Source: a virus (lineage: Duplodnaviria; Heunggongvirae; Uroviricota; Caudoviricetes). Taken from it: a stretch of 64,000 nucleotides of DNA. The stretch is taken from positions 30,376 through 94,375 of the IMG/VR virus record IMGVR_UViG_3300044613_002694; one strand, 5' to 3'. A model generated the notes under the pieces. It saw only the letters and a list, made by a program, of their open reading frames with translations. It did no database searches and was not told the DNA's origin. Each line of letters begins with the position of its first letter. Positions within the stretch are counted from its first letter, which is position 1. Below, piece after piece: positions 16,996 to 36,707 of the stretch. Position numbers and translations under genes: made by a program.

Positions 16996-18063
16996 ATGAC
17001 TTATTATTTGAAATCTGGCAACACATACAAACCAAGTGCAGAAGCATCATTGGATCTTCACTACACACTGCCAGTTGGCAATTACATTATCAAAAAAGAT
17101 CCTTTCGAAAATCTGTATTTCGAAAAAATTGACAATTTCGAATTTTCTGGAAAACGCTATGGTGACAACCAGAAGAATACCGATCGGATTATCGATACCT
17201 TTATGGATCGTGAAGTTTCAACTGGCGTAATGTTGACTGGTGAAAAAGGTTCTGGTAAATCATTGTTAGCAAAATGCTTATCAATGAAAGCAGCAGAATT
17301 AAACATCCCAACTTTAATCATTAACGATCCATGGTGTGGTGACAAATTCAACCGTTTGATCCAAGAAATTCAACAACCTTGTATCGTGTTATTTGACGAG
17401 TTTGAAAAGGTATATGATCGTGATAGCCAGGAATCAATCCTGACATTACTCGACGGCGTGTTCCCAACCAAAAAATTGTTTGTATTAACTTGTAATGACA
17501 AATGGCGCGTTGACCAACATATGCGTAATCGTCCAGGTCGTATTTACTACATGTTGGACTTCAAAGGTTTGAGCATCGAGTTCATTGAAGAATATTGCAA
17601 TGATAACTTGAAAAACAAATCACATATCGATAACATTTGCAAAATTTCATCATTATTTGCACAGTTCAACTTCGATATGCTGAAAGCGCTGGTTGAAGAA
17701 ATGAATCGTTATGATGAATCACCACAAGAAGCATTGGCTATGTTGAATGCAAAACCTGAGTTCGACGAAGGTAACAAATTCAATGTTCAATTACAAATCA
17801 ATGGTGTTACTGTTGATCCAGATGATTACTACAACGGTGACAAATGGAACGGCAATCCATTACATGGCAGATTGCGAGTTGAATATCGTACATACGAAGA
17901 TGATCCAGAAGACGGTGATTGGGTATATGCGAATTTCACACAAACTGATTTGAAAAACGTGGATGCACTTAATGGCAAGTTCGTCTTCATGAATGAAAAA
18001 AATGAAATCATGACCTTGACCAAAGTGAAAGAAACACAATTCAACTTTCACGACGCATTTTAA
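16996..18063 (+). CDS. second AAA+ family ATPase
   Basis: Walker A GEKGSGKS; Walker B CIVLFDEFE; RNRPGR arginine-finger-like segment. Confidence 0.6.
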   Translation: MTYYLKSGNTYKPSAEASLDLHYTLPVGNYIIKKDPFENLYFEKIDNFEFSGKRYGDNQKNTDRIIDTFMDREVSTGVMLTGEKGSGKSLLAKCLSMKAAELNIPTLIINDPWCGDKFNRLIQEIQQPCIVLFDEFEKVYDRDSQESILTLLDGVFPTKKLFVLTCNDKWRVDQHMRNRPGRIYYMLDFKGLSIEFIEEYCNDNLKNKSHIDNICKISSLFAQFNFDMLKALVEEMNRYDESPQEALAMLNAKPEFDEGNKFNVQLQINGVTVDPDDYYNGDKWNGNPLHGRLRVEYRTYEDDPEDGDWVYANFTQTDLKNVDALNGKFVFMNEKNEIMTLTKVKETQFNFHDAF

Positions 18064-20694: not shown

Positions 20695-20910
20695 ATGTGT
20701 TTTTCAGAAATTGTATCACTAGGTTTTTACGCAATTCCTATAATTATTAATTTTACATTTTTTTATTTTATAAGTCGTAATGAACGATTAAAACGAAGGA
20801 TGGGTGATAATCTGGATTGTTCTATGTTCTTTTCATGTATACCAGTGGCGAACATTTGTGTTAGTATACCGTTAATATTTAATTATTTAAATTACAGGTT
20901 ATCTCGATAG
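20695..20910 (+). CDS. small membrane protein
   Basis: Track ORF; hydrophobic. Confidence 0.4.
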   Translation: MCFSEIVSLGFYAIPIIINFTFFYFISRNERLKRRMGDNLDCSMFFSCIPVANICVSIPLIFNYLNYRLSR

Positions 20911-21122
20911 TGAGTTACTCAGTAAACTTACGATTTAAAACGTATCGGCATTGGAATACTTTCAAAGAATGGTGTGAATCTACCTATCATCAACATACGA
21001 ATTATGCTATCTATCTTCAACATATGCATGAAGATTTGATTGAATCGGTTAATATTAATAATTCACCAGAAATAACATTTAAATCAGAAGCACACTACCA
21101 TTGGTTTTTATTACAACAATAG
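20910..21122 (+). CDS. family A small paralog (...FKSEAHYHWFLLQQ)
   Basis: Track ORF; motif. Confidence 0.55.
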   Translation: MSYSVNLRFKTYRHWNTFKEWCESTYHQHTNYAIYLQHMHEDLIESVNINNSPEITFKSEAHYHWFLLQQ

Positions 21123-21791: not shown

Positions 21792-22112
21792 ATGAAACAA
21801 TTGTATATAAAGCTTTCAATGTTACTACCGATGAAATGGCAGAAAACATTGCGTAGAATTGAATACGCTATTAAAGATTACGAACGTGCAAATTATGTAA
21901 TATATCGTAAAGATGATGAATATCTGTACAGTAAAGGTAATGGATTTGTTAAACCTGTAATAACCAACTACACTTCATTTGAAGTATACGATAGCCTTGA
22001 ACAAGTCGATGTTGATCAAGCAATGTTAAAACAACAAGGGTATGAAACTGGTGTTTATGCGATAAGTTGTGTTCAAACCAATCAAGCTCACTTTATGATG
22101 TTTTTAGGTTGA
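21792..22112 (+). CDS. hypothetical protein
   Basis: Track ORF. Confidence 0.4.
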   Translation: MKQLYIKLSMLLPMKWQKTLRRIEYAIKDYERANYVIYRKDDEYLYSKGNGFVKPVITNYTSFEVYDSLEQVDVDQAMLKQQGYETGVYAISCVQTNQAHFMMFLG

Positions 22113-22136
22113 CAAATCGGTTTAAACTGATAAGAT
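22109..22136 (+). promoter_or_regulatory. sigma70-like promoter (TTGACA-16-TAAGAT)
   Basis: Read directly; followed by an AACACAACACAGCGAGACA leader. Confidence 0.45.
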
Positions 22137-22171
22137 ACACCCATCTTAAACACAACACAGCGAGACACCTC

Positions 22172-22687
22172 ATGATTAAATATAGAGTACGGGATTACCC
22201 TAAATGGTATTTAAATGACAACGTACATCGAGAAGATGGCCCTGAATGTGCAGAGGGCTATAAAGAATGGTGGTTAAATGGCAAGGCATACACAGAACAA
22301 GAATTTATCCAAATAACCCAAGGTAAAGAGTTATCAGTAGCTGAAATTGAACAATTACTTGGTTATAAAATTAAGGTGGTAAAAATGATCGAATACACAG
22401 TACAAGTTTACGAAGATAGAACTGCATGGTTTTTAAATGGCAAATTACATCGAGAAGATGGACCAGCTGTTGAATGGTCAAATGGTGAAAAACAATGGTA
22501 TTTAAATGGTCAAATTCATCGAGAAGATGGTCCAGCTGTTGAATATCCCAGTGGTAATAAAGCATGGTATTTAAATGGCAAGAAATTTACAGAACAAGAA
22601 TTTAACCAAATGACCCAAAGCAAAGAGCTATCAGTAGCTGATATTGAACAATTACTTGGTTATAAAGTTAAAATTGTTGACAAATAA
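22172..22687 (+). CDS. MORN-variant repeat protein (internally duplicated; paralog of 8361-8732)
   Basis: WYLNGKLHREDGPAVEW repeats; C-terminus LSVAEIEQLLGYKVKIVDK identical to 8361-8732. Confidence 0.55.
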   Translation: MIKYRVRDYPKWYLNDNVHREDGPECAEGYKEWWLNGKAYTEQEFIQITQGKELSVAEIEQLLGYKIKVVKMIEYTVQVYEDRTAWFLNGKLHREDGPAVEWSNGEKQWYLNGQIHREDGPAVEYPSGNKAWYLNGKKFTEQEFNQMTQSKELSVADIEQLLGYKVKIVDK

Positions 22688-22704
22688 CAATAAACTGTTA
22701 TAAT
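22676..22704 (+). promoter_or_regulatory. sigma70-like promoter (TTGACA-17-TATAAT gcac)
   Basis: Read directly. Confidence 0.5.
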
Positions 22705-22752: not shown

Positions 22753-23775
22753 ATGAACAAAAAATATGACAATGCAGTAGTAATCATGCGTGGGCAACCA
22801 CTTCACAACGCTCATTTAGAACTAATCAATAGAGCAGCAGAATTGGCAAAAAATGTCATTATCTTGCTTGGCTCATCAAAACAACCAAGAACATTTAAGA
22901 ATCCATTTACATTCAGTGAACGTTGTGGAATGATCTTACGTTCAATTAAAATCGAACCAGCCGTTCAGGTTTATATCGAACCATTAGTGGATATTCCTTA
23001 TAATGATCAGGTTTGGGTTTTAAACGTTCAGGATATTGTTGCCGAATGTACGCATGGTAATAGTATTTGCTTACTCGGTCATAATAAAGACAGTAGCACT
23101 GGTTATTTAAAAATGTTTCCACAATGGTCATTTGAAGATTTTGACAATGTTGCAAATCAATTAAATGCTACTGATATCCGCGATCTTTACTTTAAGCGTC
23201 CATATAATCAGGATTATATCAAAGGTGTAGTTCCAGATAATGTATTAGAGTTTTTAAATGAATTCCATGATACACCAGATTACAATGATATTCTCGAAGA
23301 AAAAGAATTTATTGAAAAATATAAACAGCAATTTGCTGGATTGCAATATGCACCAGTGTTCGTGACGGTTGATTGTTTGATCATCCAATCTGGGCATGTT
23401 CTCATGATTAAACGAAGATCGAATCCTGGTAAAAATTTAATGGCCCTTCCTGGTGGCTACCTTAATGCCGGGACTGATCGTTCACTATTAGATGCTGCTA
23501 TACGTGAACTCAAAGAAGAAACCGGTATCAAAGTTCCTGAACCTGTATTACGCGGTAGCATTATTCAAAGTAAGGTATTTGATGCAATAGATCGAGATCC
23601 ACGTGGGCGTGTGATCACCCATGCCTTCCATATTGAGCTACCAGCTGGACCGTTGCCGAAAGTAAAAGGAATGGATGATGCGCTAAAAGCAAAATGGGTG
23701 CCGTTGTCTGAAATTACCAGTGAAAACTGTTATAGTGATCATGCAGAAATCATTAAAGTATTAGTTGGTATTTAA
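22753..23775 (+). CDS. natV: bifunctional NMN adenylyltransferase / Nudix hydrolase (NadM-Nudix, phage NatV-like)
   Basis: N-terminal nucleotidyltransferase HxGH-type motif (GQPLHNAHL); C-terminal Nudix box-like REL(K)EETGI. Confidence 0.7.
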   Translation: MNKKYDNAVVIMRGQPLHNAHLELINRAAELAKNVIILLGSSKQPRTFKNPFTFSERCGMILRSIKIEPAVQVYIEPLVDIPYNDQVWVLNVQDIVAECTHGNSICLLGHNKDSSTGYLKMFPQWSFEDFDNVANQLNATDIRDLYFKRPYNQDYIKGVVPDNVLEFLNEFHDTPDYNDILEEKEFIEKYKQQFAGLQYAPVFVTVDCLIIQSGHVLMIKRRSNPGKNLMALPGGYLNAGTDRSLLDAAIRELKEETGIKVPEPVLRGSIIQSKVFDAIDRDPRGRVITHAFHIELPAGPLPKVKGMDDALKAKWVPLSEITSENCYSDHAEIIKVLVGI

Positions 23776-24534
23776 TTAACAAAATTTCTTGCAATTTTCA
23801 CCGTGCCATCTTTTATATAAACCTATGCCCTTGCCTGTTTTACCACAGTAAGGGCATTCCCAAGGTTGCTGAAAATGATGGGTACCGTCCTTTACTTTTT
23901 TTCTACTCGGATTATTATCTCCTTGGAAATTGTGCGTTCCTGCTTTTATACGTCTATGAGTAATTTCACGAGAAATCACACCACCAATAAAATGGTGTAA
24001 TCCATCTTGTACTCGTTTATTAGCTGCAATTCGTGCAATTTCTCCACCTATAAAATGATGTGTACCATTTTCAACACGCTCTTTTTGTTGTTTTCGCTGA
24101 AAATCACCGCCAACCCAGTTATGAGTGCCATTCTTAATTCTTTGTTGATTAGATCTTCTACTGATTTCACCACCGAGAAAGTGGTGTTTTCCTTCAGCTA
24201 CTAATTTACGAGCAATATTTTTAGCATCTTCTGATGTATTGCCATCACTTCCTTTTTTATAATTCATGCAATCTGGGTTTTCAAAATGAATTCCTATATA
24301 ATATTCTTCAAGTCTGCAAAGTTCTTCAATTGAAGATGCTTCTGCTATAATTTCCCTAGATAACACCGATTTATCTTTTATACTTTTAACCCAGTTTCCG
24401 CTACCTAAATAGCCATCATTTATATTTTGTGTTGTATGGCGGCCAATATAAAATTTTCCGTTAACGTGTGATGTTTTATATACTAAATACATTGCTGATG
24501 TCCTCCCAGACGTTAGAGTAGTTAGGAACTCCAA
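23776..24534 (-). CDS. GIY-YIG homing endonuclease (Seg-like) with repeated DNA-binding modules
   Basis: N-terminal YLVYK...GKFYIGRHTT...YLGSG GIY-YIG core; repeated GTHHF(I/Q)GG modules. Confidence 0.65.
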   Translation of the reverse strand: MEFLTTLTSGRTSAMYLVYKTSHVNGKFYIGRHTTQNINDGYLGSGNWVKSIKDKSVLSREIIAEASSIEELCRLEEYYIGIHFENPDCMNYKKGSDGNTSEDAKNIARKLVAEGKHHFLGGEISRRSNQQRIKNGTHNWVGGDFQRKQQKERVENGTHHFIGGEIARIAANKRVQDGLHHFIGGVISREITHRRIKAGTHNFQGDNNPSRKKVKDGTHHFQQPWECPYCGKTGKGIGLYKRWHGENCKKFC

Positions 24535-24632
24535 TTCCGTGAACTACATTCTTATTTATCCATTTCTTCTTGACATTATCATATTCATCTGCTATTATAC
24601 TATTTTAATTCAACATTTTTTAGGAAACTAAT

Positions 24633-24857
24633 ATGCTACGAGCGGATGCTGAAAGAGTATTAACCGCCAATGGTTATAAAATTGAAACATTTCATAATAA
24701 ACGCCATGATAGATGGACTGCTTGTTTAATTTCACCAACTGGGAAATACGATTTACAAACACCTACTGCATCTGGTATTTCAGAACATGCAGCAGTTGTA
24801 AATCTATTCTGTTATTGGACTGGATATACTAAAATCAGAGAGCATTATGCGAATTAA
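24633..24857 (+). CDS. hypothetical protein
   Basis: Track ORF. Confidence 0.4.
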   Translation: MLRADAERVLTANGYKIETFHNKRHDRWTACLISPTGKYDLQTPTASGISEHAAVVNLFCYWTGYTKIREHYAN

Positions 24858-25143
24858 ATTTAAACACACAGTGGTTAATGATAATGGCGATACTATTACT
24901 GAAGGATTTGGGCGTGTTATAGAAATTTCTGACTACGATACTTCAACTATTAGAGTAATGGAGCTAATTCGAAAACAAGCTAAATTGCAGAATTGGGCTG
25001 GAGTTGCTGGTATTAAAGAATTCTGCAAAACTGAATATAATGCTACTATTAATTTTAGCACTAAAACAAACCATTGGACTAGTATAACATTTAAAGATCA
25101 AGAACATTTTAAACAATTTATTGAACAGGTGAACCATGCTTAA
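24847..25143 (+). CDS. family A-like small protein (divergent, ...ITFKDQEHFKQFIEQ)
   Basis: Partial motif. Confidence 0.35.
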   Translation: MRIKFKHTVVNDNGDTITEGFGRVIEISDYDTSTIRVMELIRKQAKLQNWAGVAGIKEFCKTEYNATINFSTKTNHWTSITFKDQEHFKQFIEQVNHA

Positions 25144-25408
25144 AGAAATTGGGTTTGTTCCTAAATCATTTGAACGAAAATATCGTGCAGTTATTACTGA
25201 TGGTGGGAATTTATCAGATATGAAACAATTCTGTAATCGATTTGATAGTGTTGTATACCATCGAACAAGACAAAATTATCATAATAGATTCGCACAACCA
25301 TTTAAGGAAATTAAAAGTTTTGATGTGTTTTATTTTAAAGAAGCCAAATACCAAGAATGGTTTATATTGGCATTTAGCGAATATATTATTCAATGGGAGT
25401 GGGATTAA
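25136..25408 (+). CDS. family A small paralog (...KYQEWFILAFSEYI)
   Basis: Motif. Confidence 0.5.
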   Translation: MLKEIGFVPKSFERKYRAVITDGGNLSDMKQFCNRFDSVVYHRTRQNYHNRFAQPFKEIKSFDVFYFKEAKYQEWFILAFSEYIIQWEWD

Positions 25409-25599
25409 TGGTTAGAGTAATTTCAACACAACCACATCCTAGTGTGGTTAAAGAAATCATTTGCAAACATTGCGGGGCAGTGTTAGAATATGTGCCAGCA
25501 GACATACAAACAAGAAAAGAACAGGATTATACTGGTGGAACAGATACTATACATTTTATTGTGTGTCCTCCTTGTGGACATAAAATTACAGTTAAGTGA
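25393..25599 (+). CDS. small zinc-ribbon protein (CxxC...CxxC)
   Basis: CKHCGAV...CPPCGH. Confidence 0.4.
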   Translation: MGVGLMVRVISTQPHPSVVKEIICKHCGAVLEYVPADIQTRKEQDYTGGTDTIHFIVCPPCGHKITVK

Positions 25600-25972
25600 A
25601 ATGAATTGGACTAGAATCTTTGCTAGAGCATTCGATCATTTAATGGGCGAAACTGACCACGATGAACCAACTGTTCCAATCTTATCACAACGTGAAGCTA
25701 ATATTAGTCTAGTATTAAGGACTTGCTGGGTTATGCTACACGTTATAACTTGTCTATTTGTAATAGCATCTAACATACATCATTGGTAATAACATGAATA
25801 GAGAAAAAATAAACAAAGAAGTAAATGAATGGGACAACATACGCCCTACTAAACAATCATCAGTGACTGAACATGAAAGTAATAAAGATATTACTCATGA
25901 AAAAGTACAAAATTTAATTCAAATGGGTAATGAATTATTAGCTAAAACTCTGAAATATTTGAAGGCCGACTA

Positions 25973-26263
25973 ATGAAAATTGATGAAGTTGTTATTCGGC
26001 CAGAACGAAAAACATGGGAGTTAATGCAGAATGATGCACTTGTCTCACCGATATATAATGCATACAATGAATTTTCAAGAAAGACTGCTAAATTTACTAT
26101 TGGTGCAAATACAATATTTGATGAGTATGCACTCACTGACCTTATTGTGAATTATCAAACTTATAAAAATGCACTACTAGAAGTGTTTAATGAAAAAGAT
26201 CAAGTAATTAAAATAATTGATAGGATTATTAGTTATTTGGAATATGGTGAACTAGATGAGTGA
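25973..26263 (+). CDS. hypothetical protein
   Basis: Track ORF. Confidence 0.4.
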   Translation: MKIDEVVIRPERKTWELMQNDALVSPIYNAYNEFSRKTAKFTIGANTIFDEYALTDLIVNYQTYKNALLEVFNEKDQVIKIIDRIISYLEYGELDE

Positions 26264-26573
26264 ACAACTATCAGTAAATGAAGCATGGGCTTTTTTAAAA
26301 GAAGTCACTAAAAGAGGAACCAATTCTTTATCAAAAGAAGAATTGGTCAAATACCATGAATGTCGTAAAATTACACTTAATGCAAGAAAACCACCATCGG
26401 TTCATACCAGACATCAAGTAGTTGATCATGAAACGTTTGGTGGTACAACTTATAGAATTACCAAGGAATTGGATATCACTATTACCGATATTTGTGATAT
26501 GAGTGACGATGATATCTTGCAACTGATTGATGTAAAATCAACATTGGCTTATATTAGATCTACTTTGATATGA
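26256..26573 (+). CDS. hypothetical protein
   Basis: Track ORF. Confidence 0.4.
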   Translation: MSEQLSVNEAWAFLKEVTKRGTNSLSKEELVKYHECRKITLNARKPPSVHTRHQVVDHETFGGTTYRITKELDITITDICDMSDDDILQLIDVKSTLAYIRSTLI

Positions 26574-26782
26574 TCATAGAAATTTTCGATGCAGGGATTG
26601 CGTTTAAATTTAAATTCGGTGCTGACGTTCTTCGTACTCATGATGAAATACGAAACACAAATCAACAAGAAATGGAGCTATGGTGTAAAGACCAATTTGG
26701 TAGCCAATTTACATCACGGTATAATCATTTTTACTTTGCCAACGAAGAACAACGTAATTGGTTTATTTTGAGGTGGTCATGA
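26570..26782 (+). CDS. family A small paralog (...EEQRNWFILRWS)
   Basis: Motif; ATGA overlap. Confidence 0.55.
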   Translation: MIIEIFDAGIAFKFKFGADVLRTHDEIRNTNQQEMELWCKDQFGSQFTSRYNHFYFANEEQRNWFILRWS

Positions 26783-26982
26783 GTGTTCTATATTTAAAAG
26801 GAGATACAGTAAACAAAAACATTACACAACTGTTTTGTAAAGCCGGTCCTCAACACCTATGGTATGATTTTGTTAAAAGTTTAGATCCAAATATCATTAA
26901 AGTTGAGTGCGTGAAAGGATTCACTCGGATTACCTTTAAGAGTGATGAACATAAGACTTGGTTTATTTTGAGGTGGTCATGA
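26758..26982 (+). CDS. family A small paralog (...SDEHKTWFILRWS)
   Basis: Motif; near-identical tandem duplicate of the next gene. Confidence 0.6.
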   Translation: MVYFEVVMSVLYLKGDTVNKNITQLFCKAGPQHLWYDFVKSLDPNIIKVECVKGFTRITFKSDEHKTWFILRWS

Positions 26983-27185
26983 GTGATCTAGATTTAAAAG
27001 AGGGCAGTACAGTAGGTCATAACATTACACTACTGTATTTGAAAACCGAGACTCACCAACGATGGCTTAATTTTGTTAAAAGTTTAGATCCAAATATCAT
27101 TAAAGTTGAGGGTGTGGATGGCATTACTCGGATTACCTTCAAGAGTGATGAACATAAGACTTGGTTTATTTTGAGGTGGTCATGA
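26958..27185 (+). CDS. family A small paralog (...SDEHKTWFILRWS)
   Basis: Recent duplicate of 26758-26982. Confidence 0.6.
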   Translation: MVYFEVVMSDLDLKEGSTVGHNITLLYLKTETHQRWLNFVKSLDPNIIKVEGVDGITRITFKSDEHKTWFILRWS

Positions 27186-27430
27186 AATTATATTTAGAAT
27201 ACGATGAATTTTTAGAAAGTCAACCAAGCTGGTGGCAGAATTTCATCAAAGATGTTGATACTCGGTTAAAATTAGAACCAGGCAAATTTTCAGAAGGTCG
27301 TTCTATCATCATAAAAAAAGAACTAAAATTAGCAGGTGCTGTTAAGGTGGATGATAAAGAATGCGAAGAATCATATTTAGAATTTTTTGATGATTCAAAA
27401 GCAACCTGGTTTATGTTGAAATACTCATGA
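27161..27430 (+). CDS. family A small paralog (...SKATWFMLKYS)
   Basis: Motif. Confidence 0.5.
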   Translation: MVYFEVVMKLYLEYDEFLESQPSWWQNFIKDVDTRLKLEPGKFSEGRSIIIKKELKLAGAVKVDDKECEESYLEFFDDSKATWFMLKYS

Positions 27431-27666
27431 AATTAACAACTATCAATACCAGTGATTTCGATTTTGTTCATGATTGTCCATATGGCTTGGAATTTATTTT
27501 AGCTGACATTATGACAATATCAGTAATGCGGGTCTGGTGTAAGAAAAATTTCCGTACCTATAATTATTATTGGGAATGGTCCCCTGCTGGAACTGTGAGA
27601 ACGTTTTGCTTTAGTTCAGAAGAAAACCGATCCTGGTTTATACTTAAATTTTCGGAGTACCTATGA
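27427..27666 (+). CDS. family A small paralog (...ENRSWFILKFSEYL)
   Basis: Motif. Confidence 0.55.
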   Translation: MKLTTINTSDFDFVHDCPYGLEFILADIMTISVMRVWCKKNFRTYNYYWEWSPAGTVRTFCFSSEENRSWFILKFSEYL

Positions 27667-27902
27667 ATGCGGTTATTGATAATATATTGGATCATGCACA
27701 TTGTAAATTCCCTGTAAAAATAAAAGACGATTACGGTATATTTTCAGAAATAATTTCAGAAATGACCCAATGGTGCAGAGACCATATTGGTACATATTAC
27801 TTTACGTGGGATTGGGTAGTATATCGTGGTGTAAAAATGTTTTATTTTGAAAAAGAACATCACCGAACCTGGTTTATCATTAGATTTTCGGAGTACTTAT
27901 GA
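27663..27902 (+). CDS. family A small paralog (...HHRTWFIIRFSEYL)
   Basis: Motif. Confidence 0.55.
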   Translation: MNAVIDNILDHAHCKFPVKIKDDYGIFSEIISEMTQWCRDHIGTYYFTWDWVVYRGVKMFYFEKEHHRTWFIIRFSEYL

Positions 27903-28099
27903 GCGATGGTTATAACGATCCATTCCCATGGAAAGTACAGTTTAAGCCAAGCCGATATTTTCCAAAATATTATAATGAAATGGCAGATTTTTGTAATAAA
28001 ATGACAGATCATTGGGGAAGTGTAGAGTATACGTTTATGTTTGCATACGAAGAACATATGAACTGGTTTATACTTAATTTTTCGGAGTACTTGGAATGA
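27899..28099 (+). CDS. family A small paralog (...EHMNWFILNFSEYLE)
   Basis: Motif. Confidence 0.55.
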   Translation: MSDGYNDPFPWKVQFKPSRYFPKYYNEMADFCNKMTDHWGSVEYTFMFAYEEHMNWFILNFSEYLE

Positions 28100-28344
28100 G
28101 TTTTTACATAGCAACCATACCATTTAAAGAATGGATAACTGATCCTATGCAACGCCCAATCGTTTACGTAAGTATGATTGAATGGTGCAAGGAAAATATA
28201 GAACCAAGACATCAACCAGAATCACCACACTACTGGTTCCCTAGAGCATTTCGTGGTAGAACTGGTGTGTATAAATTTCATTTTAGAGATGAACAAGACT
28301 ACAATAACTTTGTTCAACATTTTAAGTTAACAGGTGTGATATGA
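28096..28344 (+). CDS. family A-like small protein (divergent)
   Basis: Position in the array; weak motif. Confidence 0.35.
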   Translation: MSFYIATIPFKEWITDPMQRPIVYVSMIEWCKENIEPRHQPESPHYWFPRAFRGRTGVYKFHFRDEQDYNNFVQHFKLTGVI

Positions 28345-28571
28345 ATAAAATGATTAAATGCATTTATGAATCCGCGAAAACTGATGTTAACAGCGAAGAA
28401 GAACTAATCCAGAAATTTGCTGAAGGAATGCTTATGCAAATTGATGCAGTATTCAGATCACATTGCTATAACATAGATGATTACATGAAACTCAGTGATA
28501 ACGAACAGTTCTACTTGGTAGGAGCTGGTCTTTTACACACAAAAATAAAACGCCAGTTTAGTGAGGACTAA
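28341..28571 (+). CDS. hypothetical protein
   Basis: Track ORF. Confidence 0.4.
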   Translation: MNKMIKCIYESAKTDVNSEEELIQKFAEGMLMQIDAVFRSHCYNIDDYMKLSDNEQFYLVGAGLLHTKIKRQFSED

Positions 28572-28666
28572 ATGAAAGATAAAATTGTTTCATTTGCAAT
28601 TTACCTAGTACTATCATTTTTTGATTGGTTGTACAACGTACAAGCATGGATTAAGGAAAAATTTGA

Positions 28667-28695
28667 TTGACATTTTCTATTAATTGATCTATACT
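28667..28695 (+). promoter_or_regulatory. sigma70-like promoter (TTGACA-17-TATACT)
   Basis: Read directly. Confidence 0.4.
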
Positions 28696-28902
28696 ATGGT
28701 CATCTCAACATTAAAAAGGGTTAACATGACAACTTATGCATTATTTTTATATCTATCAACTGGTATTCTTCAGAACGCAACTGGTGGTCCGGCAGTAGTT
28801 GATGGATTTACAACAATGGAAAAATGCGAAGCAGCTAATCAAGCTGCAAAAGCACAATTGAAACAATATGATTGGGGTAAATGTATGAAGGTAGATAAAT
28901 GA
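28684..28902 (+). CDS. small secreted/membrane protein
   Basis: Hydrophobic N-terminus; Cys pair. Confidence 0.4.
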   Translation: MIYTMVISTLKRVNMTTYALFLYLSTGILQNATGGPAVVDGFTTMEKCEAANQAAKAQLKQYDWGKCMKVDK

Positions 28903-29084
28903 CAAATACACCAACTATTGCAGAACTACTCACCCGCATCGCAAATCTTGAATCACGATTGGAAGAATTACAAATTATGTATGATAACAAATGTGATGCA
29001 CTAGCAGATGTGAAAAAAGAATATGCCGAATATCGATCAGAAGTGGTATGGGGAAATGACAGAAACCAAATGGGGTGTTTTTAA
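28899..29084 (+). CDS. small coiled-coil protein
   Basis: Track ORF. Confidence 0.4.
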   Translation: MTNTPTIAELLTRIANLESRLEELQIMYDNKCDALADVKKEYAEYRSEVVWGNDRNQMGCF

Positions 29085-29085
29085 A

Positions 29086-29400
29086 ATGACATTCATTGAA
29101 CAAGTATTTAAAATTTCTGATTCAGTTAAAAACGACCGAACTGTGCTTGGTGTCCTCGGACATACTATGTCTGAACTGGGTGAACTAGCAGAAGAAGTAA
29201 CCATTGATCAAGGACAAAGTTATAAGAATCCAGGTGATGATGGTGTTATAGGCGAAGCGATCGATACGATTATATGTATTCTAGATTTGATACGAATCAC
29301 ATATCCAAATATAACCGAACAAGATTTGCAACAAATCGCTGAAATTAAATTACAAAAATGGGTTGATAAAACCAACAATAAAGGTGGACAAAATGGGTAG
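29086..29400 (+). CDS. MazG-like nucleoside triphosphate pyrophosphohydrolase
   Basis: LGHTMSELGELAEEV...EAIDTIICILDL all-alpha NTP-PPase (MazG) signature; internal start of track ORF 29023. Confidence 0.6.
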   Translation: MTFIEQVFKISDSVKNDRTVLGVLGHTMSELGELAEEVTIDQGQSYKNPGDDGVIGEAIDTIICILDLIRITYPNITEQDLQQIAEIKLQKWVDKTNNKGGQNG

Positions 29401-30346
29401 TTGGGCAGGTAGTTGTGCTATTAGTAATCTTCATATTAAAGATCAAGACGATGTAGTTGTATTTGCATTACTTAAAAATAAAGATGAACTCAATAATTTT
29501 ATTTACAATAATTCATTGTATTCAGTTTGCCCCCTACCATTTTATGCAACCTACAACGATTACGGAGCATGCATCAATGAGCATGGTGCCGGTTTCGATC
29601 CATTCATGAAATTACTTACTCAACGGATGGTTGAATTTGAAATTGGTGATAATAAGTACCATGATATCGAAGTAAAAAAAGAAGGATTCAATGCAGAAAA
29701 AATGTGGGATGCAAATCATGAAGAAAGATTGTATTTCAAACCATATGGAAAAGATCAACTTAAAGTAGAATTGATTATGGTTCATCGTGCGGTATTTGAT
29801 GCAATCATTGCCGAACGACATCAATACATGGCCAAAAATCAAGATGGTGAATATGTATATTTTTATTACACATTTCAAGATGTTGCTGACTTGGTTCCAG
29901 CATTTGTTGATACACTATATGATGCCATCTCTGAGATCAGTGCATTATCTGATACCATCACAAAGTGCGACGCAATATCTACTCAGCAGCTCATGATGAA
30001 AAAATATATGCTCCCAGTAACTGTATTCAACTATGATGAAAATAATAAATTATCAAGATACCTATCTAATGACTCATATAAATGGGCAATTGTCGATCGG
30101 CTTAAAGATTACATAATTCAATATGCTGAAAAATACAGTAAAGAAGAAACAATTGCATTAATTGTTGAATTATTGAAAGGTATCTTTGTCGATGATTTTG
30201 TTACTGATACCCGTAAATTATGGGTTCCACCAAGTGGCCGTGGTAGTCAATCACAAGCACATAGCCCATATAGAACTTTAATCAAAGCAATGTCTGAAAT
30301 TCTTGATAAAGAAAAAGAAGAATGGGATTCAGATGACGACGATTAA
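29393..30346 (+). CDS. hypothetical protein with acidic tail
   Basis: 318 aa; C-terminal EEWDSDDDD. Confidence 0.45.
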   Translation: MGSWAGSCAISNLHIKDQDDVVVFALLKNKDELNNFIYNNSLYSVCPLPFYATYNDYGACINEHGAGFDPFMKLLTQRMVEFEIGDNKYHDIEVKKEGFNAEKMWDANHEERLYFKPYGKDQLKVELIMVHRAVFDAIIAERHQYMAKNQDGEYVYFYYTFQDVADLVPAFVDTLYDAISEISALSDTITKCDAISTQQLMMKKYMLPVTVFNYDENNKLSRYLSNDSYKWAIVDRLKDYIIQYAEKYSKEETIALIVELLKGIFVDDFVTDTRKLWVPPSGRGSQSQAHSPYRTLIKAMSEILDKEKEEWDSDDDD

Positions 30347-30410
30347 CTCTAATTTCTAGTTGACACATTAAAAGAAAGTAGACATTATATCTACTTTCTT
30401 TGGAGGATTT

Positions 30411-30551
30411 ATGGTATATGTGATTATTATGATCGCCCAGTTAGCAACAGTTCTATTTACTTCATTATTATTTGGACGAGCTGGGTTTCTTGGTGCACTA
30501 ACCGGTGTTATTGTTTATTGGGTATTTCGTCTACTTGGGGTGGATTGGTAA
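30411..30551 (+). CDS. small membrane peptide (46 aa)
   Basis: GGAGG RBS; MVYVIIMIAQLATVLFTSLLFGRAGFLGALTGVIVYWVFRLLGVDW. Confidence 0.35.
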   Translation: MVYVIIMIAQLATVLFTSLLFGRAGFLGALTGVIVYWVFRLLGVDW

Positions 30552-30562
30552 CCAATCCAGCT

Positions 30563-30590
30563 TGACAAATATAAGTAATAGTGTATAATA
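30563..30590 (+). promoter_or_regulatory. sigma70-like promoter (TTGACA-16-TGTATAAT acac)
   Basis: Read directly; extended -10. Confidence 0.5.
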
Positions 30591-30640
30591 CACAATACAT
30601 TGATAGACAATGTATTAATTAATTTTTAAGGAGTTTAAAA

Positions 30641-32104
30641 ATGATAGAACATCTAAAACAACAAAATTTTATCCTACAAGCCGATGCCTACAAAGCTACA
30701 CATTGGAAGCAATTAAAAAGATCAACTAAAAAATCTTATTCGGTTATCGTCCCACGCAAAGTTAGCAAATATTCGGATATCATAGTTGCAATGGGGCAAT
30801 CAATGGTTGCTTCATATTTTGCATCTGTCCGTATCACCGATGAAATGATCGATGAAGCTGAATTGGAAATTACCGAACAAGGCTATGATTTCTACCGAGC
30901 TGGATGGGAATATATTGCACACGAATTAGACGGTAAATTACCATTAGCAATTTTTGGTGTTGAAGAAGGTCGTATCGTACAACCACAAACGCCTATTTTA
31001 GGCATTATTAATACCGATGACCGTTCAGCTTGGTTACCTGCATACTCGGAAACTATTGCACAAGATATTATCTGGACAATGAGTTCAGTAGCAAGTTTAT
31101 CGTTAGCAATTAGAAAAACATTTGCACATTATATCGAAGAAACTGGTGCTCACATGAATCAGTTGAACACCCGTTGTCATTTCTTTGGTGATCGTGGTGG
31201 TAGTTCTCCTGAATCTGCAGTACTTACTGCCATAGCACATGCCGTAATTTTTGATGGCAGTGATTGTTTACAAGCCAATCGTTATATCAAACGTTTGTAT
31301 AACACTTCAAAAGCATATACTTCAAGTATTGATGCAACTGAACACAGTACAATGTGTGATAATTCTGACGCAACTACCAAAGATGATTACGGTGCAGCAG
31401 TAATGGCAGTTGAATTACTGGAACAAGCAGTTGAACGCACTAAAACCCGTGGAATTGGTATTCCAATGATTAGTGCAGTTATTGACACATACGATAGTCG
31501 TAGATTTGTTAGAGATTATGTTGGTGGTCCTGAATTAAAAGAACGTGTTATCAATAGCGGTGGTACATTTGTGTTTCGTCCTGATTCTGGTGATATTACA
31601 GTAGAGCCAGGTATGGTCGGCAATGACATTGAATATGCATTTGGTGTAGAAGTCAATGAAAAAGGCTACAAAGTTATCCCTTGCTATACCGCAGTATTAC
31701 AAGGCGATGGTATTAAATGGAATACTTACGAAAGTGTAATTAAAGGATGGGTTGATGCTGGTTTCAGTATTGATAACTTTGCTATTGGTATGGGCGCTGG
31801 ATTATCAAATGGTACTTCAAGAGACGATTTCAGTTTCAGTATGAAAAGTATTGCAACATTTGATGGGCTGCGTTGGACTCGTAAATTAAAAGAACCAAAA
31901 ACCGATCTTGGTAAAAAATCATTATCAGGATTAGTTAGATGTCGTGAAGATGCCAATGGTAACTTGGAAGTATACGATGCTATACACGAAGGCAACGAGT
32001 ACGGTTTTATGTATCCAGGTGCTGGTTGGAAGTTATGGTTTGAAAATGGCCATAGAAAATATCGTCAATCTTTTGATGAAGTCCGTGAATGGGCTTCAAA
32101 GTAA
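30641..32104 (+). CDS. nadV: nicotinamide phosphoribosyltransferase (NadV/NAMPT)
   Basis: 487 aa; typical NAMPT length; motifs consistent with the NAPRTase family (GxGxP...DTYD... , FGVEEGR); strong RBS AAGGAG. Confidence 0.7.
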   Translation: MIEHLKQQNFILQADAYKATHWKQLKRSTKKSYSVIVPRKVSKYSDIIVAMGQSMVASYFASVRITDEMIDEAELEITEQGYDFYRAGWEYIAHELDGKLPLAIFGVEEGRIVQPQTPILGIINTDDRSAWLPAYSETIAQDIIWTMSSVASLSLAIRKTFAHYIEETGAHMNQLNTRCHFFGDRGGSSPESAVLTAIAHAVIFDGSDCLQANRYIKRLYNTSKAYTSSIDATEHSTMCDNSDATTKDDYGAAVMAVELLEQAVERTKTRGIGIPMISAVIDTYDSRRFVRDYVGGPELKERVINSGGTFVFRPDSGDITVEPGMVGNDIEYAFGVEVNEKGYKVIPCYTAVLQGDGIKWNTYESVIKGWVDAGFSIDNFAIGMGAGLSNGTSRDDFSFSMKSIATFDGLRWTRKLKEPKTDLGKKSLSGLVRCREDANGNLEVYDAIHEGNEYGFMYPGAGWKLWFENGHRKYRQSFDEVREWASK

Positions 32105-33436: not shown

Positions 33437-34228
33437 ATGAAATACACACTAAAATTGACAGCTTTAGCATTAGTCGCAGCCACTTTATCTGGTTGCGTTC
33501 GTGTAGAATCTGGTCACATCGGTATCCGTAGAGATATCAACAAACAAATCGTACCAACTGAACTACAACCCGGTTCATGGAATCAAGTTATTATTGGTGA
33601 TGTTTTAACAGTACCAGTTAAAGATGTTGCTGTGAAAATCGAAGATTTATCACCGGTTGCAAAAGACAATTCAACCATGAAAGATTTTGATTTGGTTGTA
33701 ATTTACAATGTGAATCCTAATTCAGGTGCAGAATTGTACACCACTAAAAACTCAGCATTCCATGCATATGACGGCAGTGATAGTTACTTAATGTATAACT
33801 ACATTGTCAATGTAGCAAGAAATGCGGTATACAAATCTGCTCGGAAATACGAGGCGTTGGAAATGAATGATGCACGACCAGCAATCGAGCAGGAAGTAAA
33901 AGAACTGATTGTTAAATCTCTCGAAGAAGAACATTTAGCAACTGATTTGACCATTAGCCAGGTCATGGTCAAAAGTATCGTTCCAGCTGATTCAATTGTA
34001 CAATCTGCAAATGAGTTGGTTCGTGCTAAAAACTCTTATAAACAAAAAGAGATTGAAGTACAAACTGCTAAACAAGAAGCCGAACGTATCTCAGTATTAA
34101 ATAGCAATTCTGGGGCTATTGAATATATGCGAGCAATGGCAATGATGAATATTTCAGAAGGTATCAAAGAAGGCAAGGTGCAAACAATTGTTGTCCCTTC
34201 CAATTTCACCGCTCTGATGATGAAATAA
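33437..34228 (+). CDS. SPFH/band-7 (prohibitin/HflC-like) lipoprotein
   Basis: Lipobox LSGC; domain architecture and C-terminal coiled-coil AKQEAERI consistent with SPFH. Confidence 0.5.
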   Translation: MKYTLKLTALALVAATLSGCVRVESGHIGIRRDINKQIVPTELQPGSWNQVIIGDVLTVPVKDVAVKIEDLSPVAKDNSTMKDFDLVVIYNVNPNSGAELYTTKNSAFHAYDGSDSYLMYNYIVNVARNAVYKSARKYEALEMNDARPAIEQEVKELIVKSLEEEHLATDLTISQVMVKSIVPADSIVQSANELVRAKNSYKQKEIEVQTAKQEAERISVLNSNSGAIEYMRAMAMMNISEGIKEGKVQTIVVPSNFTALMMK

Positions 34229-36276: not shown

Positions 36277-36498
36277 TCAACTCCATCTGATGATGGCTAA
36301 TGTTATTTTTACTGGATCACCTTGGTAAATTTCAAGATAAGTTTCGTCTGTTTCTGGACTTAATTTTGCATAGGTAACAATCATCCAGTTTGCACCGTCA
36401 TTGTGATAACCGAATTTTTTAGTCATCCATTGATAGACTTCAACATAATTACGTTTGGATATTTTAATTTTAGTCATGACCACTTGATTACAAACCAA
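36277..36498 (-). CDS. family A-like small protein (...VKITLAIIRWS)
   Basis: C-terminal RWS; divergent. Confidence 0.45.
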   Translation of the reverse strand: MVCNQVVMTKIKISKRNYVEVYQWMTKKFGYHNDGANWMIVTYAKLSPETDETYLEIYQGDPVKITLAIIRWS

Positions 36499-36707
36499 TT
36501 CCTGTGCTCTGCTTTTCTGAAGGCGAAAATATCACAATCATCAATCTCTGCATACGAATTGTACCACATTAGTTCACCAAACGTTGTATCACACCATTCA
36601 AACATATCTTGGAACACCTCGTCTTCACCATATCTATCATAAAGCTTTATTCTATCATCATGATAGAGTAAAGCCTGATAAACATATTCTTCTGTATGAA
36701 CTTGCAT
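36474..36707 (-). CDS. family A small paralog (...AEHRNWFVIKWS)
   Basis: Motif. Confidence 0.55.
   Translation of the reverse strand: MQVHTEEYVYQALLYHDDRIKLYDRYGEDEVFQDMFEWCDTTFGELMWYNSYAEIDDCDIFAFRKAEHRNWFVIKWS

What the first reader, a model, noticed from the sequence alone, without database searches (positions are those of the whole stretch)
22753..32104. NAD+ reconstitution gene pair (NadV/NAMPT plus bifunctional NMNAT-Nudix NatV), NARP2-like, split by a homing endonuclease and a paralog array
30641-32104 encodes a nicotinamide phosphoribosyltransferase-like protein and 22753-23775 a NadM-type NMN adenylyltransferase fused to a Nudix domain. Together they can rebuild NAD+ from nicotinamide and ADP-ribose-derived products. 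This is the logic of the phage NAD+ reconstitution pathway 2 that counters NAD+-depleting immunity (Thoeris, DSR, SIR2-type systems). Here the two genes are ~7 kb apart, separated by a GIY-YIG HEG (23776-24534), a family A array and a MazG gene. This suggests the locus has been a hotspot for insertions.
Basis: partly seen in the sequence, partly recalled or inferred. Interest (0 to 1): 0.6.

Follow-up and report, generated by a model that had tools for sequence, protein, structure and literature searches.

The report
Phage NAD+ salvage gene pair (NARP2-type)
An uncultured aquatic T4-like phage carries the two already-known enzymes that rebuild NAD+ from nicotinamide (the NARP2 pathway, thought to defeat NAD+-depleting bacterial immunity); this is an ordinary new example, with the twist that a selfish homing endonuclease has landed next to one gene and swapped half of it.

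Summary
22753-23775 encodes a NadM-type NMN adenylyltransferase fused to a Nudix hydrolase (NatV). 30641-32104 encodes a nicotinamide phosphoribosyltransferase (NadV). Both match the proteins of Vibrio phage KVP40, the NARP2 prototype (37% and 32% identity). NadV keeps every key NAMPT catalytic residue, including the nicotinamide-specifying Asp. It lacks the aromatic "selectivity clamp" that defines the NARP1 enzyme Namat, and no Adps/Prs gene is in the window.

The 6.9-kb split is not unusual. In KVP40 the genes lie 42.7 kb apart, and in other phages 0.1-4.6 kb apart, always with natV upstream on the same strand. Each gene here has its own perfect sigma-70 consensus promoter.

The "insertion hotspot" idea is supported by strain variants:
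- One sister strain lacks the endonuclease.
- Another has an unrelated HNH endonuclease at the same junction.
- Two strains lack two paralog copies.

natV is a mosaic whose endonuclease-proximal Nudix part comes from another lineage that carries the same endonuclease.

Verdict: a new member of a known kind. The anti-defence role is inferred, not shown.

The parts
22677..22704 (+). Perfect sigma-70 consensus promoter (TTGACA-16-TATAAT), 49 bp upstream of the natV start codon
   Evidence: There are 12 such perfect sites in the window against 0.16 expected by chance. A strong ribosome-binding site (TAGGAG) follows.
22753..23775 (+). natV: bifunctional NadM-type NMN adenylyltransferase plus Nudix hydrolase (340 aa). 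It is a mosaic allele.
   Evidence: for identity. for the mosaic structure and purifying selection (dN/dS about 0.15).
23776..24534 (-). Freestanding homing endonuclease (Seg-like, probably GIY-YIG, with a C-terminal zinc finger). It is convergent with natV and abuts its stop codon. The likely true start is the ATG at 24492 (238 aa).
   Evidence: PHROG 314 and 12324. hhalign to the GIY-YIG domain, 70% probability. Absent in sister strain L007. Orthologs at 70% and 67% identity sit downstream of natV in L018 and L019.
24570..24598 (+). Near-consensus promoter (11/12) that restarts rightward transcription after the endonuclease
24633..25408 (+). Three small ORFs (74, 98 and 90 aa) whose presence varies between strains. 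Two are weak family A members.
   Evidence: Present or absent in different combinations in L007, L021 and L023.
25393..26573 (+). Zinc-ribbon ORF (25393-25599) and further small ORFs of unknown function
   Evidence: In L007 the zinc-ribbon ORF starts 3 bp after natV.
26570..28344 (+). Tandem array of 7-8 family A paralogs (66-89 aa, C-terminal ...SExHxxWF[LI]L[RK]WS motif)
   Evidence: L002 and L003 lack 27661-28062, which is two copies.
28341..29084 (+). Small ORFs of unknown function, with an 11/12 promoter at 28667-28695
29023..29400 (+). MazG-like nucleotide pyrophosphohydrolase candidate. Gene callers on the source contigs start it at 29086 in some strains (104 aa) and at 29023 in others (125 aa).
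   Evidence: phrog_1247, E=6e-22. No Pfam or PDB match.
29363..30346 (+). 327-aa protein of unknown function (phrog_5960), conserved in all strain variants
   Evidence: No Pfam or PDB match.
30411..30551 (+). 46-aa hydrophobic peptide ORF in the gap upstream of nadV
   Evidence: Sequence. Called as a gene in the source contigs.
30562..30589 (+). Perfect sigma-70 consensus promoter (TTGACA-16-TATAAT), 52 bp upstream of the nadV start codon
   Evidence: The ribosome-binding site is TAAGGAG.
30641..32104 (+). nadV: nicotinamide phosphoribosyltransferase (Nampt), 487 aa
   Evidence: It is 99% identical, with dN/dS about 0.07, against strain L007.

Best explanation
The locus is a NARP2-type NAD+ salvage module of an uncultured aquatic T4-like phage.

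Proposed pathway:
1. NadV condenses nicotinamide with PRPP to give NMN.
2. The N-terminal NadM domain of NatV adenylylates NMN with ATP to give NAD+.
3. The C-terminal Nudix domain of NatV probably hydrolyses ADP-ribose (and NAD(H)) to AMP plus ribose-5-phosphate. The host PRPP synthetase could then return that ribose-5-phosphate to PRPP.

Each gene has its own perfect host-type (sigma-70) promoter. Both are therefore probably transcribed early by the unmodified host polymerase, independently of the 6.9 kb between them.

The net effect is to raise or restore NAD+ during infection. In KVP40-derived constructs this overcomes Thoeris and DSR2.

The spacer is accessory DNA that turns over quickly. 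A freestanding homing endonuclease sits at the natV 3' end, and it has brought in a foreign Nudix-coding segment by co-conversion. A lineage-specific small-protein family expands and contracts by recombination between copies.

Shown here: gene identities, motif conservation, promoter sites, strain polymorphism, the mosaic structure of natV, and purifying selection.

Inferred: enzyme activities, early timing of expression, the anti-defence role, and the endonuclease's target.

The confidence of 0.7 is a blend: about 0.85 for the enzyme identities and the NMN route, and about 0.5-0.6 for counter-defence being the selected function.
For: Enzyme identity:
- Domain and family matches.
- Human NAMPT residues Y18, F193, R196, D219, E246/H247, S275, D279, R311, D313, G353/D354, G383, R392, S398, K400, K415 and K423 are all conserved in NadV.
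- Homology to KVP40: NadV 32% identity, E=6e-55; NatV 37% identity, E=4e-66, full length.
- NatV invariant motif residues H21, T140, R143 and R251-E252..E255-E256.

NARP2 rather than NARP1:
- NARP2 is defined as Nampt plus Nmnat in the same genome. The KVP40 pair was tested against Thoeris and DSR2.
- The Namat signature GS-X-phi-X-phi-X-phi-TRD, with aromatic residues, is absent. The window reads GAGLSNGTSRD. Adps-linked enzymes of Staphylococcus phage K, Bacillus phage Tomato and Aeromonas phage BUCT695 read GSFSYQFNTRD, GSYTYAYNTRD and GSFTYQYVTRD.
- Bit scores are 176-194 against Nampt structures and 134 against Namat 9W5X.

Gene order and expression:
- The order natV then nadV, on the same strand, is conserved with spacers from 95 bp to 42.7 kb.
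- Perfect promoters lie 49 and 52 bp upstream of the two genes. There are 12 such sites in the window against 0.16 expected.

Selection:
- natV dN/dS is about 0.15 in both its conserved and divergent parts. nadV dN/dS is about 0.07.

Endonuclease and mosaic:
- L007 lacks 23776 to about 25405.
- Window-to-L007 identity across natV falls from 95% at the 5' end to 56-62% next to the endonuclease, while the flanks are 97-98.5% identical.
- Residues 221-340 are 72-88% identical to the P0023/P0024 alleles, against 52-68% for the sister alleles.
- Both P0023 and P0024 are followed by orthologous endonucleases.
- L023 has an unrelated HNH endonuclease at the same junction.
Against: - No activity was measured.
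- The NatV nucleotidyltransferase motif is degenerate at two consensus positions (MRGQPLHNAH against GRFQPxHxGH). The first Glu of the Nudix box (GX5E) is replaced in this allele class.
- Both proteins fall below NCBIfam's curated equivalog cut-offs: 350.7 against 397 bits, and 362.9 against 405 bits.
- NadV belongs to a subclade (with L008, Xanthomonas phage XaC1 and Vibrio phage 2.275.O) that separates from both canonical Nampt and Namat in a small neighbour-joining tree. Its clamp-equivalent helix differs from the canonical GGxLLQ. As far as I found, no member of that subclade has been assayed.
- Only 64 kb of the genome is visible, so an Adps gene elsewhere cannot be excluded.
- Related contigs L021 and L022 carry natV with no nadV within 9 kb downstream.
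- The host, and whether it has NAD+-depleting defences, is unknown.
Confidence: 0.7

Rival explanations
1. The pair is a general auxiliary metabolic module. It boosts NAD+ supply for phage replication (redox metabolism, NAD+-using phage enzymes) whatever the host's immunity, rather than acting as a dedicated counter-defence device.
For: NARP2 raises NAD+ even in cells without a defence system, because it starts from PRPP. The pathway is described as an auxiliary metabolic gene or 'NAD-salvage island' in jumbo phages. The window also encodes an NAD-dependent epimerase-family enzyme. Both genes have early-type promoters, like nucleotide-metabolism genes.
Against: This does not exclude the best explanation. 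The same enzymes from KVP40 overcome Thoeris and DSR2 when expressed. The neighbourhood and window also hold other candidate counter-defence genes, namely NADAR and a MazG-like ORF.
Confidence: 0.3
2. The 487-aa protein is a Namat-type enzyme (NARP1 logic). It would join nicotinamide directly to ADPR-pyrophosphate, with NatV playing another role.
For: Namat and Nampt belong to the same superfamily and share the catalytic core. KVP40 Nampt can make some NAD+ from ADPR-PP in vitro. The window's loop equivalent to the Namat selectivity loop begins 'PRK', a little like Namat's 'PRSNK'.
Against: There are no aromatic residues at clamp positions 3, 5 and 7. No Adps/Prs-like gene was found among the scanned ORFs of the window, whereas 97% of adps genes have a Namat homolog in their immediate vicinity. 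A NatV partner is present and is conserved upstream in all relatives. The protein scores lower against Namat 9W5X than against Nampt structures.
Confidence: 0.03
3. The endonuclease-driven chimerism has inactivated natV, so the module is a decaying remnant.
For: The 3' two-thirds of natV is foreign relative to sister strains. The Nudix box deviates at GX5E, and the nucleotidyltransferase motif is non-canonical.
Against: The reading frame is intact. dN/dS is about 0.15 in both the conserved and the imported parts. The same Nudix-box variant (GGY[LV]NAxTD[KR]S...RELxEETxIKVP) is shared by the sampled alleles of the 57-61% identity group (P0023 to P0082). The MR[GA]QPLHNAH variant is shared by the sister alleles P0014 to P0022. 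The gene has a perfect promoter and ribosome-binding site.
Confidence: 0.05

Closest known systems
NARP2 of Vibrio phage KVP40 (NadV/Nampt KVP40.0264 plus NatV/Nmnat-Nudix KVP40.0162)
   Same: Same two protein families and domain architectures. Full-length homology: 32% and 37% identity. natV is upstream of nadV on the same strand and the two are not adjacent, being 42.7 kb apart in KVP40. Both phages are T4-like myoviruses.
   Different: The sequences are only distantly related. The window's NadV is in a different subclade, with a roughly 17-residue insertion after the catalytic His and a different clamp-equivalent helix. KVP40 also has NadR-like and PnuC genes, and none was found in this window. 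Here an endonuclease abuts natV.
[quoted passage not shown]
   Same: NAMPT and an NMNAT-Nudix gene lie near each other but not always adjacent, inside a cluster of up to about 10 kb. In cultured jumbo phages natV precedes nadV with spacers of 0.1-4.6 kb. The closest cultured NadV is 44% identical.
   Different: Apart from the two genes, the spacer content is unrelated. I could not compare sequences with FTs-1 or FKo-1, which were not in the collections I searched.
Bacterial NadM-Nudix bifunctional enzymes (Synechocystis slr0787, PDB 2qjo; Francisella, PDB 2qjt)
   Same: Full-length collinear alignment, E=3e-80 and 7e-61. Same NMNAT plus ADP-ribose pyrophosphatase architecture.
   Different: This is a phage copy with variant motifs (HNAH in place of HxGH, and a two-residue insertion in the Nudix box). 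It is a mosaic of two lineages.
NARP1 (Adps plus Namat)
   Same: Namat has the same fold and catalytic core as NadV, and the goal of restoring NAD+ is the same.
   Different: No Adps partner. No aromatic selectivity clamp. NARP2 needs PRPP and a separate adenylyltransferase step.
Freestanding homing endonucleases of T4-like phages (Seg and Mob proteins)
   Same: An intergenic, separately transcribed endonuclease gene lies next to a conserved gene. It is present in some strains and absent in others. Flanking sequence divergence is greatest next to the insertion. Different endonuclease families occupy the same site in related phages. The comparison with the Seg and Mob literature rests on my own knowledge.
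   Different: The neighbouring gene is natV, an accessory NAD+ gene, rather than a core replication or nucleotide-metabolism gene. Cleavage specificity is untested.

Membership tests
NARP2 (Osterman et al., bioRxiv 10.1101/2024.02.11.579819) | Encodes a homolog of KVP40 Nampt (NadV) | tested here: met
   BLASTP against KVP40.0264: 32% identity over 433 aa, E=6e-55. Pfam NAMPT_N plus NAPRTase.
NARP2 (Osterman et al., bioRxiv 10.1101/2024.02.11.579819) | The same genome encodes a homolog of KVP40 Nmnat (NatV). Adjacency is not required. | tested here: met
   BLASTP against KVP40.0162: 37% identity, full length, E=4e-66. The criterion is stated in the paper's methods.
NARP2 (Osterman et al., bioRxiv 10.1101/2024.02.11.579819) | No Adps (PRPS-like) gene in the genome, since NARP1 and NARP2 were never found together | tested here: inconclusive
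   No Prs-like domain in any scanned ORF of 110 aa or more in the 64-kb window. The rest of the genome is not available.
NARP2 (Osterman et al., bioRxiv 10.1101/2024.02.11.579819) | Restores NAD+ and overcomes NAD+-depleting defence | not testable with these tools
   Needs infection assays and NAD+ measurements.
Nicotinamide phosphoribosyltransferase (Nampt/NadV) | Catalytic and substrate residues, in human numbering: Y18, F193, R196, D219 (nicotinamide specificity), H247 (autophosphorylation), R311, D313, G353/D354, R392, S398, K400 | tested here: met
   All are conserved in the alignment to 3dgr, and most are invariant across five phage NadV proteins. The residue roles come from my knowledge of the NAMPT structural literature and from PMC12774641.
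Nicotinamide phosphoribosyltransferase (Nampt/NadV) | Reaches the curated NCBIfam score for PRK09198 | tested here: not met
   362.9 bits against a cut-off of 405. The match covers the full length, so the shortfall reflects divergence.
Namat (NARP1 ligase) | Selectivity-clamp helix motif GS-X-phi-X-phi-X-phi-TRD, with aromatic residues at X | tested here: not met
   The window reads GAGLSNGTSRD. Three Adps-linked Namats show GS[FY]x[Y]x[FY]xTRD in the same alignment.
Namat (NARP1 ligase) | An adps gene in the immediate vicinity | tested here: not met
   None within the window. In Staphylococcus phage K, Bacillus phage Tomato and Aeromonas phage BUCT695 it lies directly upstream.
NadM-Nudix bifunctional NMNAT (NatV) | N-terminal nucleotidyltransferase with (H/T)xxH and SxTxxR-type motifs | tested here: met
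   H18-N-A-H21 and N-A-T140-D-I-R143. H21, T140 and R143 are invariant across five phage NatV proteins. The preceding GxFxP is degenerate (MRGQP).
NadM-Nudix bifunctional NMNAT (NatV) | C-terminal Nudix box GX5EX7REUXEEXGU | tested here: inconclusive
   The REUXEEXGU core is intact (RELKEETGI). The GX5E glutamate is displaced by a two-residue insertion (GYLNAGTD). The sampled alleles of the 57-61% identity group (P0023 to P0082) share this variant.
NadM-Nudix bifunctional NMNAT (NatV) | Reaches the curated NCBIfam equivalog score (PRK05379 models) | tested here: not met
   Best score 350.7 bits against a cut-off of 397, although the match covers the full length.
GIY-YIG homing endonuclease | GIY-YIG catalytic domain | tested here: inconclusive
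   Pfam PF01541 is not significant. hhalign to a Pfam-verified GIY-YIG domain gives 70% probability, E=4e-5, with YxxYK...YIG and the downstream Glu and Asn aligned. PHROG homing-endonuclease families match.
GIY-YIG homing endonuclease | Behaves as a mobile insertion: present in some strains and absent in others, at a fixed site | tested here: met
   Absent in L007, L021 and L022. Orthologs occupy the same position in L018 and L019. A different endonuclease occupies that position in L023.
NARP3 (PnuC plus NadR) | PnuC transporter and NadR-type kinase/adenylyltransferase | tested here: not met
   Neither domain was found in the window ORFs scanned.

The most novel reading that the evidence does not exclude
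natV may be a dedicated homing site for at least two unrelated freestanding endonucleases. Their co-conversion tracts would then move whole Nudix domains of a counter-defence enzyme between distantly related phages. This shuffling, together with the non-canonical NadV subclade found here, could diversify substrate range. For example, the Nudix domain might act on ADP-ribose-derived immune signals, or NadV might accept a phosphoribosyl donor other than PRPP. In that reading the natV-nadV interval, including the orphan family A array, is a fast-evolving counter-defence island and not neutral filler.
Probability: 0.12. Interest if true: 0.55.

Novelty: new member of a known kind. Interest (0 to 1): 0.3.

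Why it matters
The finding adds a divergent, uncultured freshwater example to the NARP2 family: at most 46% identity to any cultured phage protein, and 32-37% to the KVP40 prototype. It shows that gene adjacency should not be used to detect NARP2, because the prototype's genes are themselves 42.7 kb apart. What links the two genes here is a conserved order and matching promoters, not an operon.

The strain comparison gives a clean natural example of a homing endonuclease remodelling an accessory NAD+ gene. That is useful for anyone studying how counter-defence genes move between phages. None of this changes current understanding of the pathway.

Tried and rejected
- Near-identity DNA search of the locus against 50,697 phage records found nothing.
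- I first took KVP40.0211 (annotated nadR) for NatV. It is a NadR-type NMNAT plus AAA_28 kinase with no similarity to the window protein. The true natV is KVP40.0162.
- I looked for a conserved third gene between natV and nadV in relatives. L008 has NADAR and nucleoside-deoxyribosyltransferase-like genes there. No spacer protein is shared among L008, XaC1, Vibrio phage 2.275.O and the window, apart from a NADAR homolog that lies 18 kb away in the window.
- Rfam scans of the window (gathering threshold) and of the locus (E up to 0.1) found no riboswitch or other known RNA.
- PDB sequence searches for the 327-aa protein and the MazG-like ORF found nothing.
- The endonuclease gave no significant PDB sequence match.
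- Family A has no Pfam or PHROG match and only 13 metagenomic relatives. Its confident model (pLDDT 86) is a small ferredoxin-like fold with no significant structural neighbour, best E about 0.05.
- The primary KVP40 biochemistry paper (PMC5388814) is not held. NatV's Nudix substrates are therefore cited from memory and from secondary sources.

Full report
**1. What is at the coordinates**

The ORF list confirms a 340-aa ORF at 22753-23775 and a 487-aa ORF at 30641-32104, both on the + strand.

[quoted passage not shown] It aligns end to end with NCBIfam models for 'bifunctional nicotinamide-nucleotide adenylyltransferase/Nudix hydrolase' (E=9e-105). It also aligns with the solved NadM-Nudix enzymes of Synechocystis (2qjo, E=3e-80) and Francisella (2qjt).

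The 487-aa protein has the NAMPT-specific N-terminal domain plus the NAPRTase catalytic domain. It matches phrog_448 'nicotinamide phosphoribosyl transferase' (E=2e-108). It also matches human, rodent and Xanthomonas NAMPT structures (E=1e-50 to 4e-56).

Both proteins fall below NCBIfam's curated cut-offs, so they are divergent members.
- a minus-strand endonuclease gene that abuts natV;
- small ORFs;
- a tandem paralog array;
- a MazG-like ORF, supported by PHROG only;
- a 327-aa protein of unknown function.

**2. Nampt, not nicotinate PRTase and not Namat**

The alignment to human NAMPT (3dgr, native numbering) shows these residues conserved: Y18, F193, R196, D219, E246/H247, S275, D279, R311, D313, G353/D354, G383, R392, S398, K400, K415 and K423. 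D219 is the determinant of nicotinamide over nicotinate. H247 is the autophosphorylated histidine. These roles come from established NAMPT structural work and are restated in PMC12774641.

NARP1's Namat shares this catalytic core, so I tested the feature that separates the two. Namat has a 'selectivity clamp' helix with the consensus GS-X-phi-X-phi-X-phi-TRD, in which the X positions are aromatic and stack on adenine.

I aligned the window protein with three Adps-linked enzymes that I fetched:

| Group | Source | Clamp-equivalent sequence |
|---|---|---|
| Adps-linked Namat | Staphylococcus phage K | GSFSYQFNTRD |
| Adps-linked Namat | Bacillus phage Tomato | GSYTYAYNTRD |
| Adps-linked Namat | Aeromonas phage BUCT695 | GSFTYQYVTRD |
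| Canonical Nampt | KVP40, phiEap-3, human, Xanthomonas | GGxLLQ..RD |
| Window | this locus | GAGLSNGTSRD |

The window protein has no aromatic residue at any clamp position. It also scores 176-194 bits against Nampt structures but 134 bits against the SpbetaL1 Namat structure 9W5X. No Prs/Adps-like domain was found in any scanned ORF of the window.

One nuance remains. In a small neighbour-joining tree the window protein groups with L008 (55% identity), Xanthomonas phage XaC1 and Vibrio phage 2.275.O (41-44%). That clade is separate from both canonical Nampt and Namat. Every member of the clade lies downstream of a natV, which argues for NMN as the product. I found no biochemical test of any member.

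**3. Comparison with the NARP2 prototype**

NARP2 was defined from KVP40 as Nampt plus Nmnat. The partner was scored as present anywhere in the same genome, and 94% of phages with a KVP40-type Nampt also encode Nmnat. I fetched KVP40:
- natV is KVP40.0162, at 94,507-95,532;
- nadV is KVP40.0264, at 138,214-139,707;
- they are 42.7 kb apart on the same strand.

The window proteins are 37% (NatV, E=4e-66) and 32% (NadV, E=6e-55) identical to them.

Wherever I could read both positions in other phages, natV lies upstream of nadV on the same strand. This holds in every case listed below.

| Phage or contig | Spacer between natV and nadV |
|---|---|
| K64-1 and phiKp_21 | about 0.1 kb |
| GAP32-like phages and XaC1 | about 0.6 kb |
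| L008 | 2.8 kb |
| 375-kb metagenomic contig L020 | 3.3 kb |
| Vibrio phage 2.275.O | 4.2 kb |
| RsoM2USA | 4.6 kb |

A 2026 paper already describes roughly 10-kb 'NAD-salvage islands' with both genes in freshwater Flavobacterium jumbophages. The 6.9-kb separation is therefore within the known range and is not a new architecture.

**4. Expression signals**

The pattern TTGACA-N16-18-TATAAT occurs 12 times in the window, against 0.16 expected by chance. Within the 12.5 kb around the locus, the only two perfect sites lie 49 bp upstream of natV and 52 bp upstream of nadV. Each is followed by a strong ribosome-binding site. This suggests that both genes are transcribed independently and early by the host polymerase. 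The timing is an inference from T4-type biology. No known riboswitch or other Rfam family is present.

**5. The spacer as a hotspot: population evidence**

The exact NadV protein occurs on at least 16 metagenomic contigs. Aligning the related contigs to the window gave three results.

(a) L002 and L003 are identical to the window, except that 27661-28062 is missing. That segment is two family A copies.

(b) L007 is 97-98.5% identical in the flanks but lacks 23776 to about 25405, which holds the endonuclease and three small ORFs. There, natV is followed after 3 bp by the zinc-ribbon ORF.

(c) Across natV, window-to-L007 identity falls from 95% in the first 200 bp, to about 70% mid-gene, to 56-62% next to the endonuclease.
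- Synonymous differences rise from pS=0.21 in codons 1-100 to 0.72-0.80 in the rest of the gene.
- dN/dS is about 0.15 in codons 1-100, in codons 201-340 and over the whole gene. It could not be computed for codons 101-200 because synonymous sites are saturated.
- For comparison, nadV is 99% identical with pS=0.035.

**6. natV is a mosaic tied to the endonuclease**

A search of 5.8 billion proteins returned a series of natV alleles. Identity by segment shows two patterns:
- Residues 1-100 of the window protein match the sister-phage alleles P0015 and P0016 at 88-100%.
- Residues 221-340 (Nudix core to the C-terminus) match P0023 and P0024 at 72-88%, against only 52-68% for the sister alleles.

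I predicted that P0023- and P0024-type genes would carry the same endonuclease. They do. On contigs L018 and L019, natV is followed immediately by a convergent 251-aa or 261-aa ORF that is 70% or 67% identical to the window endonuclease.

The phage-lineage alleles on L021 and L022 have no endonuclease after natV. L023 has a different one: a 392-aa HNH-type homing endonuclease (phrog_559, E=6e-75) at the same junction. It is followed by the 74-aa and 98-aa ORFs, which are 96% identical to the window's.

The junction therefore has at least four states in close relatives:

| Contig | What follows natV |
|---|---|
| L007 | zinc-ribbon ORF directly, no insert |
| L021 | 90-aa ORF only |
| L023 | HNH endonuclease, then the 74-aa and 98-aa ORFs |
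| Window | Seg-like endonuclease, then the 74-aa, 98-aa and 90-aa ORFs |

This is the pattern expected of freestanding homing endonucleases with co-conversion of flanking markers, as known from T4-like phages (my knowledge). Cleavage of natV itself is inferred, not shown. The three endonuclease-bearing lineages are only about 70% identical at DNA level, so the actual donor has not been sampled.

**7. Mechanism**

The best-supported mechanism has three steps.
1. NadV makes NMN from nicotinamide and PRPP.
2. NatV's NadM domain makes NAD+ from NMN and ATP.
3. NatV's Nudix domain can cleave ADP-ribose to AMP and ribose-5-phosphate.

Returning that ribose-5-phosphate to PRPP needs the host's Prs, because NARP2 starts from PRPP and not from ADP-ribose.

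The counter-defence role rests on the KVP40 experiments. A general NAD+-boosting role is equally compatible with the sequence data, and the two roles do not exclude each other.

**8. Context and verdict**

The window is an accessory (probably early) region plus virion genes of an uncultured aquatic T4-like myovirus:
- A virion protein is 51% identical to that of cyanophage S-RIM32.
- A Gp23 fragment is present.
- GC content is about 34%.
- There is no near-identical DNA match in cultured phages.

The finding is real and correctly interpreted, but it is a new member of a known kind. The most interesting addition is the endonuclease-linked Nudix swap in natV.

Noticed in passing
window 1621-3818, 6740-8078, 9261-9667, 20910-21122, 24847-25408, 26570-28344 (+); 36474-36707, 40168-46146 (-): Family A is a lineage-specific family of 66-118-aa proteins with the C-terminal motif F-x-F-[KE]-[SN]-E-x-[HD]-x-x-W-F-[LI]-L-[RK]-[WF]-S. 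BLAST clustering finds 21 copies, and a family HMM finds 36 ORFs in 64 kb. It has no Pfam or PHROG match and only 13 metagenomic relatives in 5.8 billion proteins. The AlphaFold model (pLDDT 86) is a small ferredoxin-like beta-alpha-alpha-beta-beta-alpha fold with no significant PDB neighbour. Copy number varies between strains.
   Followed up: partly
window 45010-45366 (-): One family A member (118 aa) has an N-terminus (residues 6-49) that matches the N-terminal region of the T4 major capsid protein Gp23 (Pfam PF07068, E=5.6e-13). It looks like a fusion of a capsid-gene fragment to the family A domain.
   Followed up: no
window 37825-39122 (TnpB ORF 37831-39012, -): A TnpB / IS605 OrfB-type gene (Pfam HTH_OrfB_IS605, OrfB_IS605, Cas12f1-like_TNB) sits on a 1.3-kb segment. 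The segment is present in the window, L001 and L005 but cleanly absent from sister strain L007. It is therefore a recently mobile element inside a lytic-type phage genome.
   Followed up: partly
window 3864-4385 (+): A NADAR-domain protein (Pfam E=2e-47), which is another NAD/ADP-ribose-linked gene. In relative L008 its homolog (41% identity) lies immediately upstream of nadV, next to a nucleoside 2-deoxyribosyltransferase-like gene. L023 also has one.
   Followed up: partly
window 50640-51611 (-): A second freestanding homing endonuclease, this one with clear GIY-YIG and NUMOD3 domains. It shares the C-terminal CPYCG...RWH..NCK zinc finger with the natV-adjacent endonuclease.
   Followed up: no
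window 1621, 5286, 6669, 8299, 19563, 22677, 30562, 39034 (+); 37564, 42180, 46181, 51683 (-): Twelve perfect TTGACA-N16-18-TATAAT sites occur, against 0.16 expected by chance. They form a distinct class of consensus host-type promoters, probably early promoters, and their orientation mostly follows the local gene orientation.
   Followed up: partly
window 22067-22687 (+) and 8361-8732 (+); L007 2111-3700: Repeat proteins built of 'W-[YW]-LNG-x-HREDGPA-[IV]-E' units lie just upstream of natV. The number of repeats, and the number of such genes, differs between strains: one gene in the window against three or four in L007. This is another recombination-prone spot.
   Followed up: no
L020 (JGI 3300071517 Ga0620987_00187, 375-kb contig), 8001-13693: A jumbo-phage-sized contig has natV, then 12 small ORFs (3.3 kb), then nadV. 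It also encodes a ribosomal protein S21 homolog and a ClpX-like ATPase. Its NatV is 59% identical to the window's, closer than any cultured phage.
   Followed up: no
L021 15082-15995: In a related phage contig with natV but no nadV within 9 kb downstream, an ADP-ribosylglycohydrolase (PF03747) is called as two adjacent ORFs of 178 and 137 aa. It may be split or frameshifted.
   Followed up: no
window 5962-6666, 15618-18063, 33437-34228, 916-1488: Other accessory genes: a Bax1-inhibitor-like membrane protein, a BCS1-like AAA ATPase followed by a second AAA ATPase, an SPFH/Band-7 protein, and an HD_4 (RelA/SpoT-type HD) hydrolase. Their functions in this phage are unknown.
   Followed up: no
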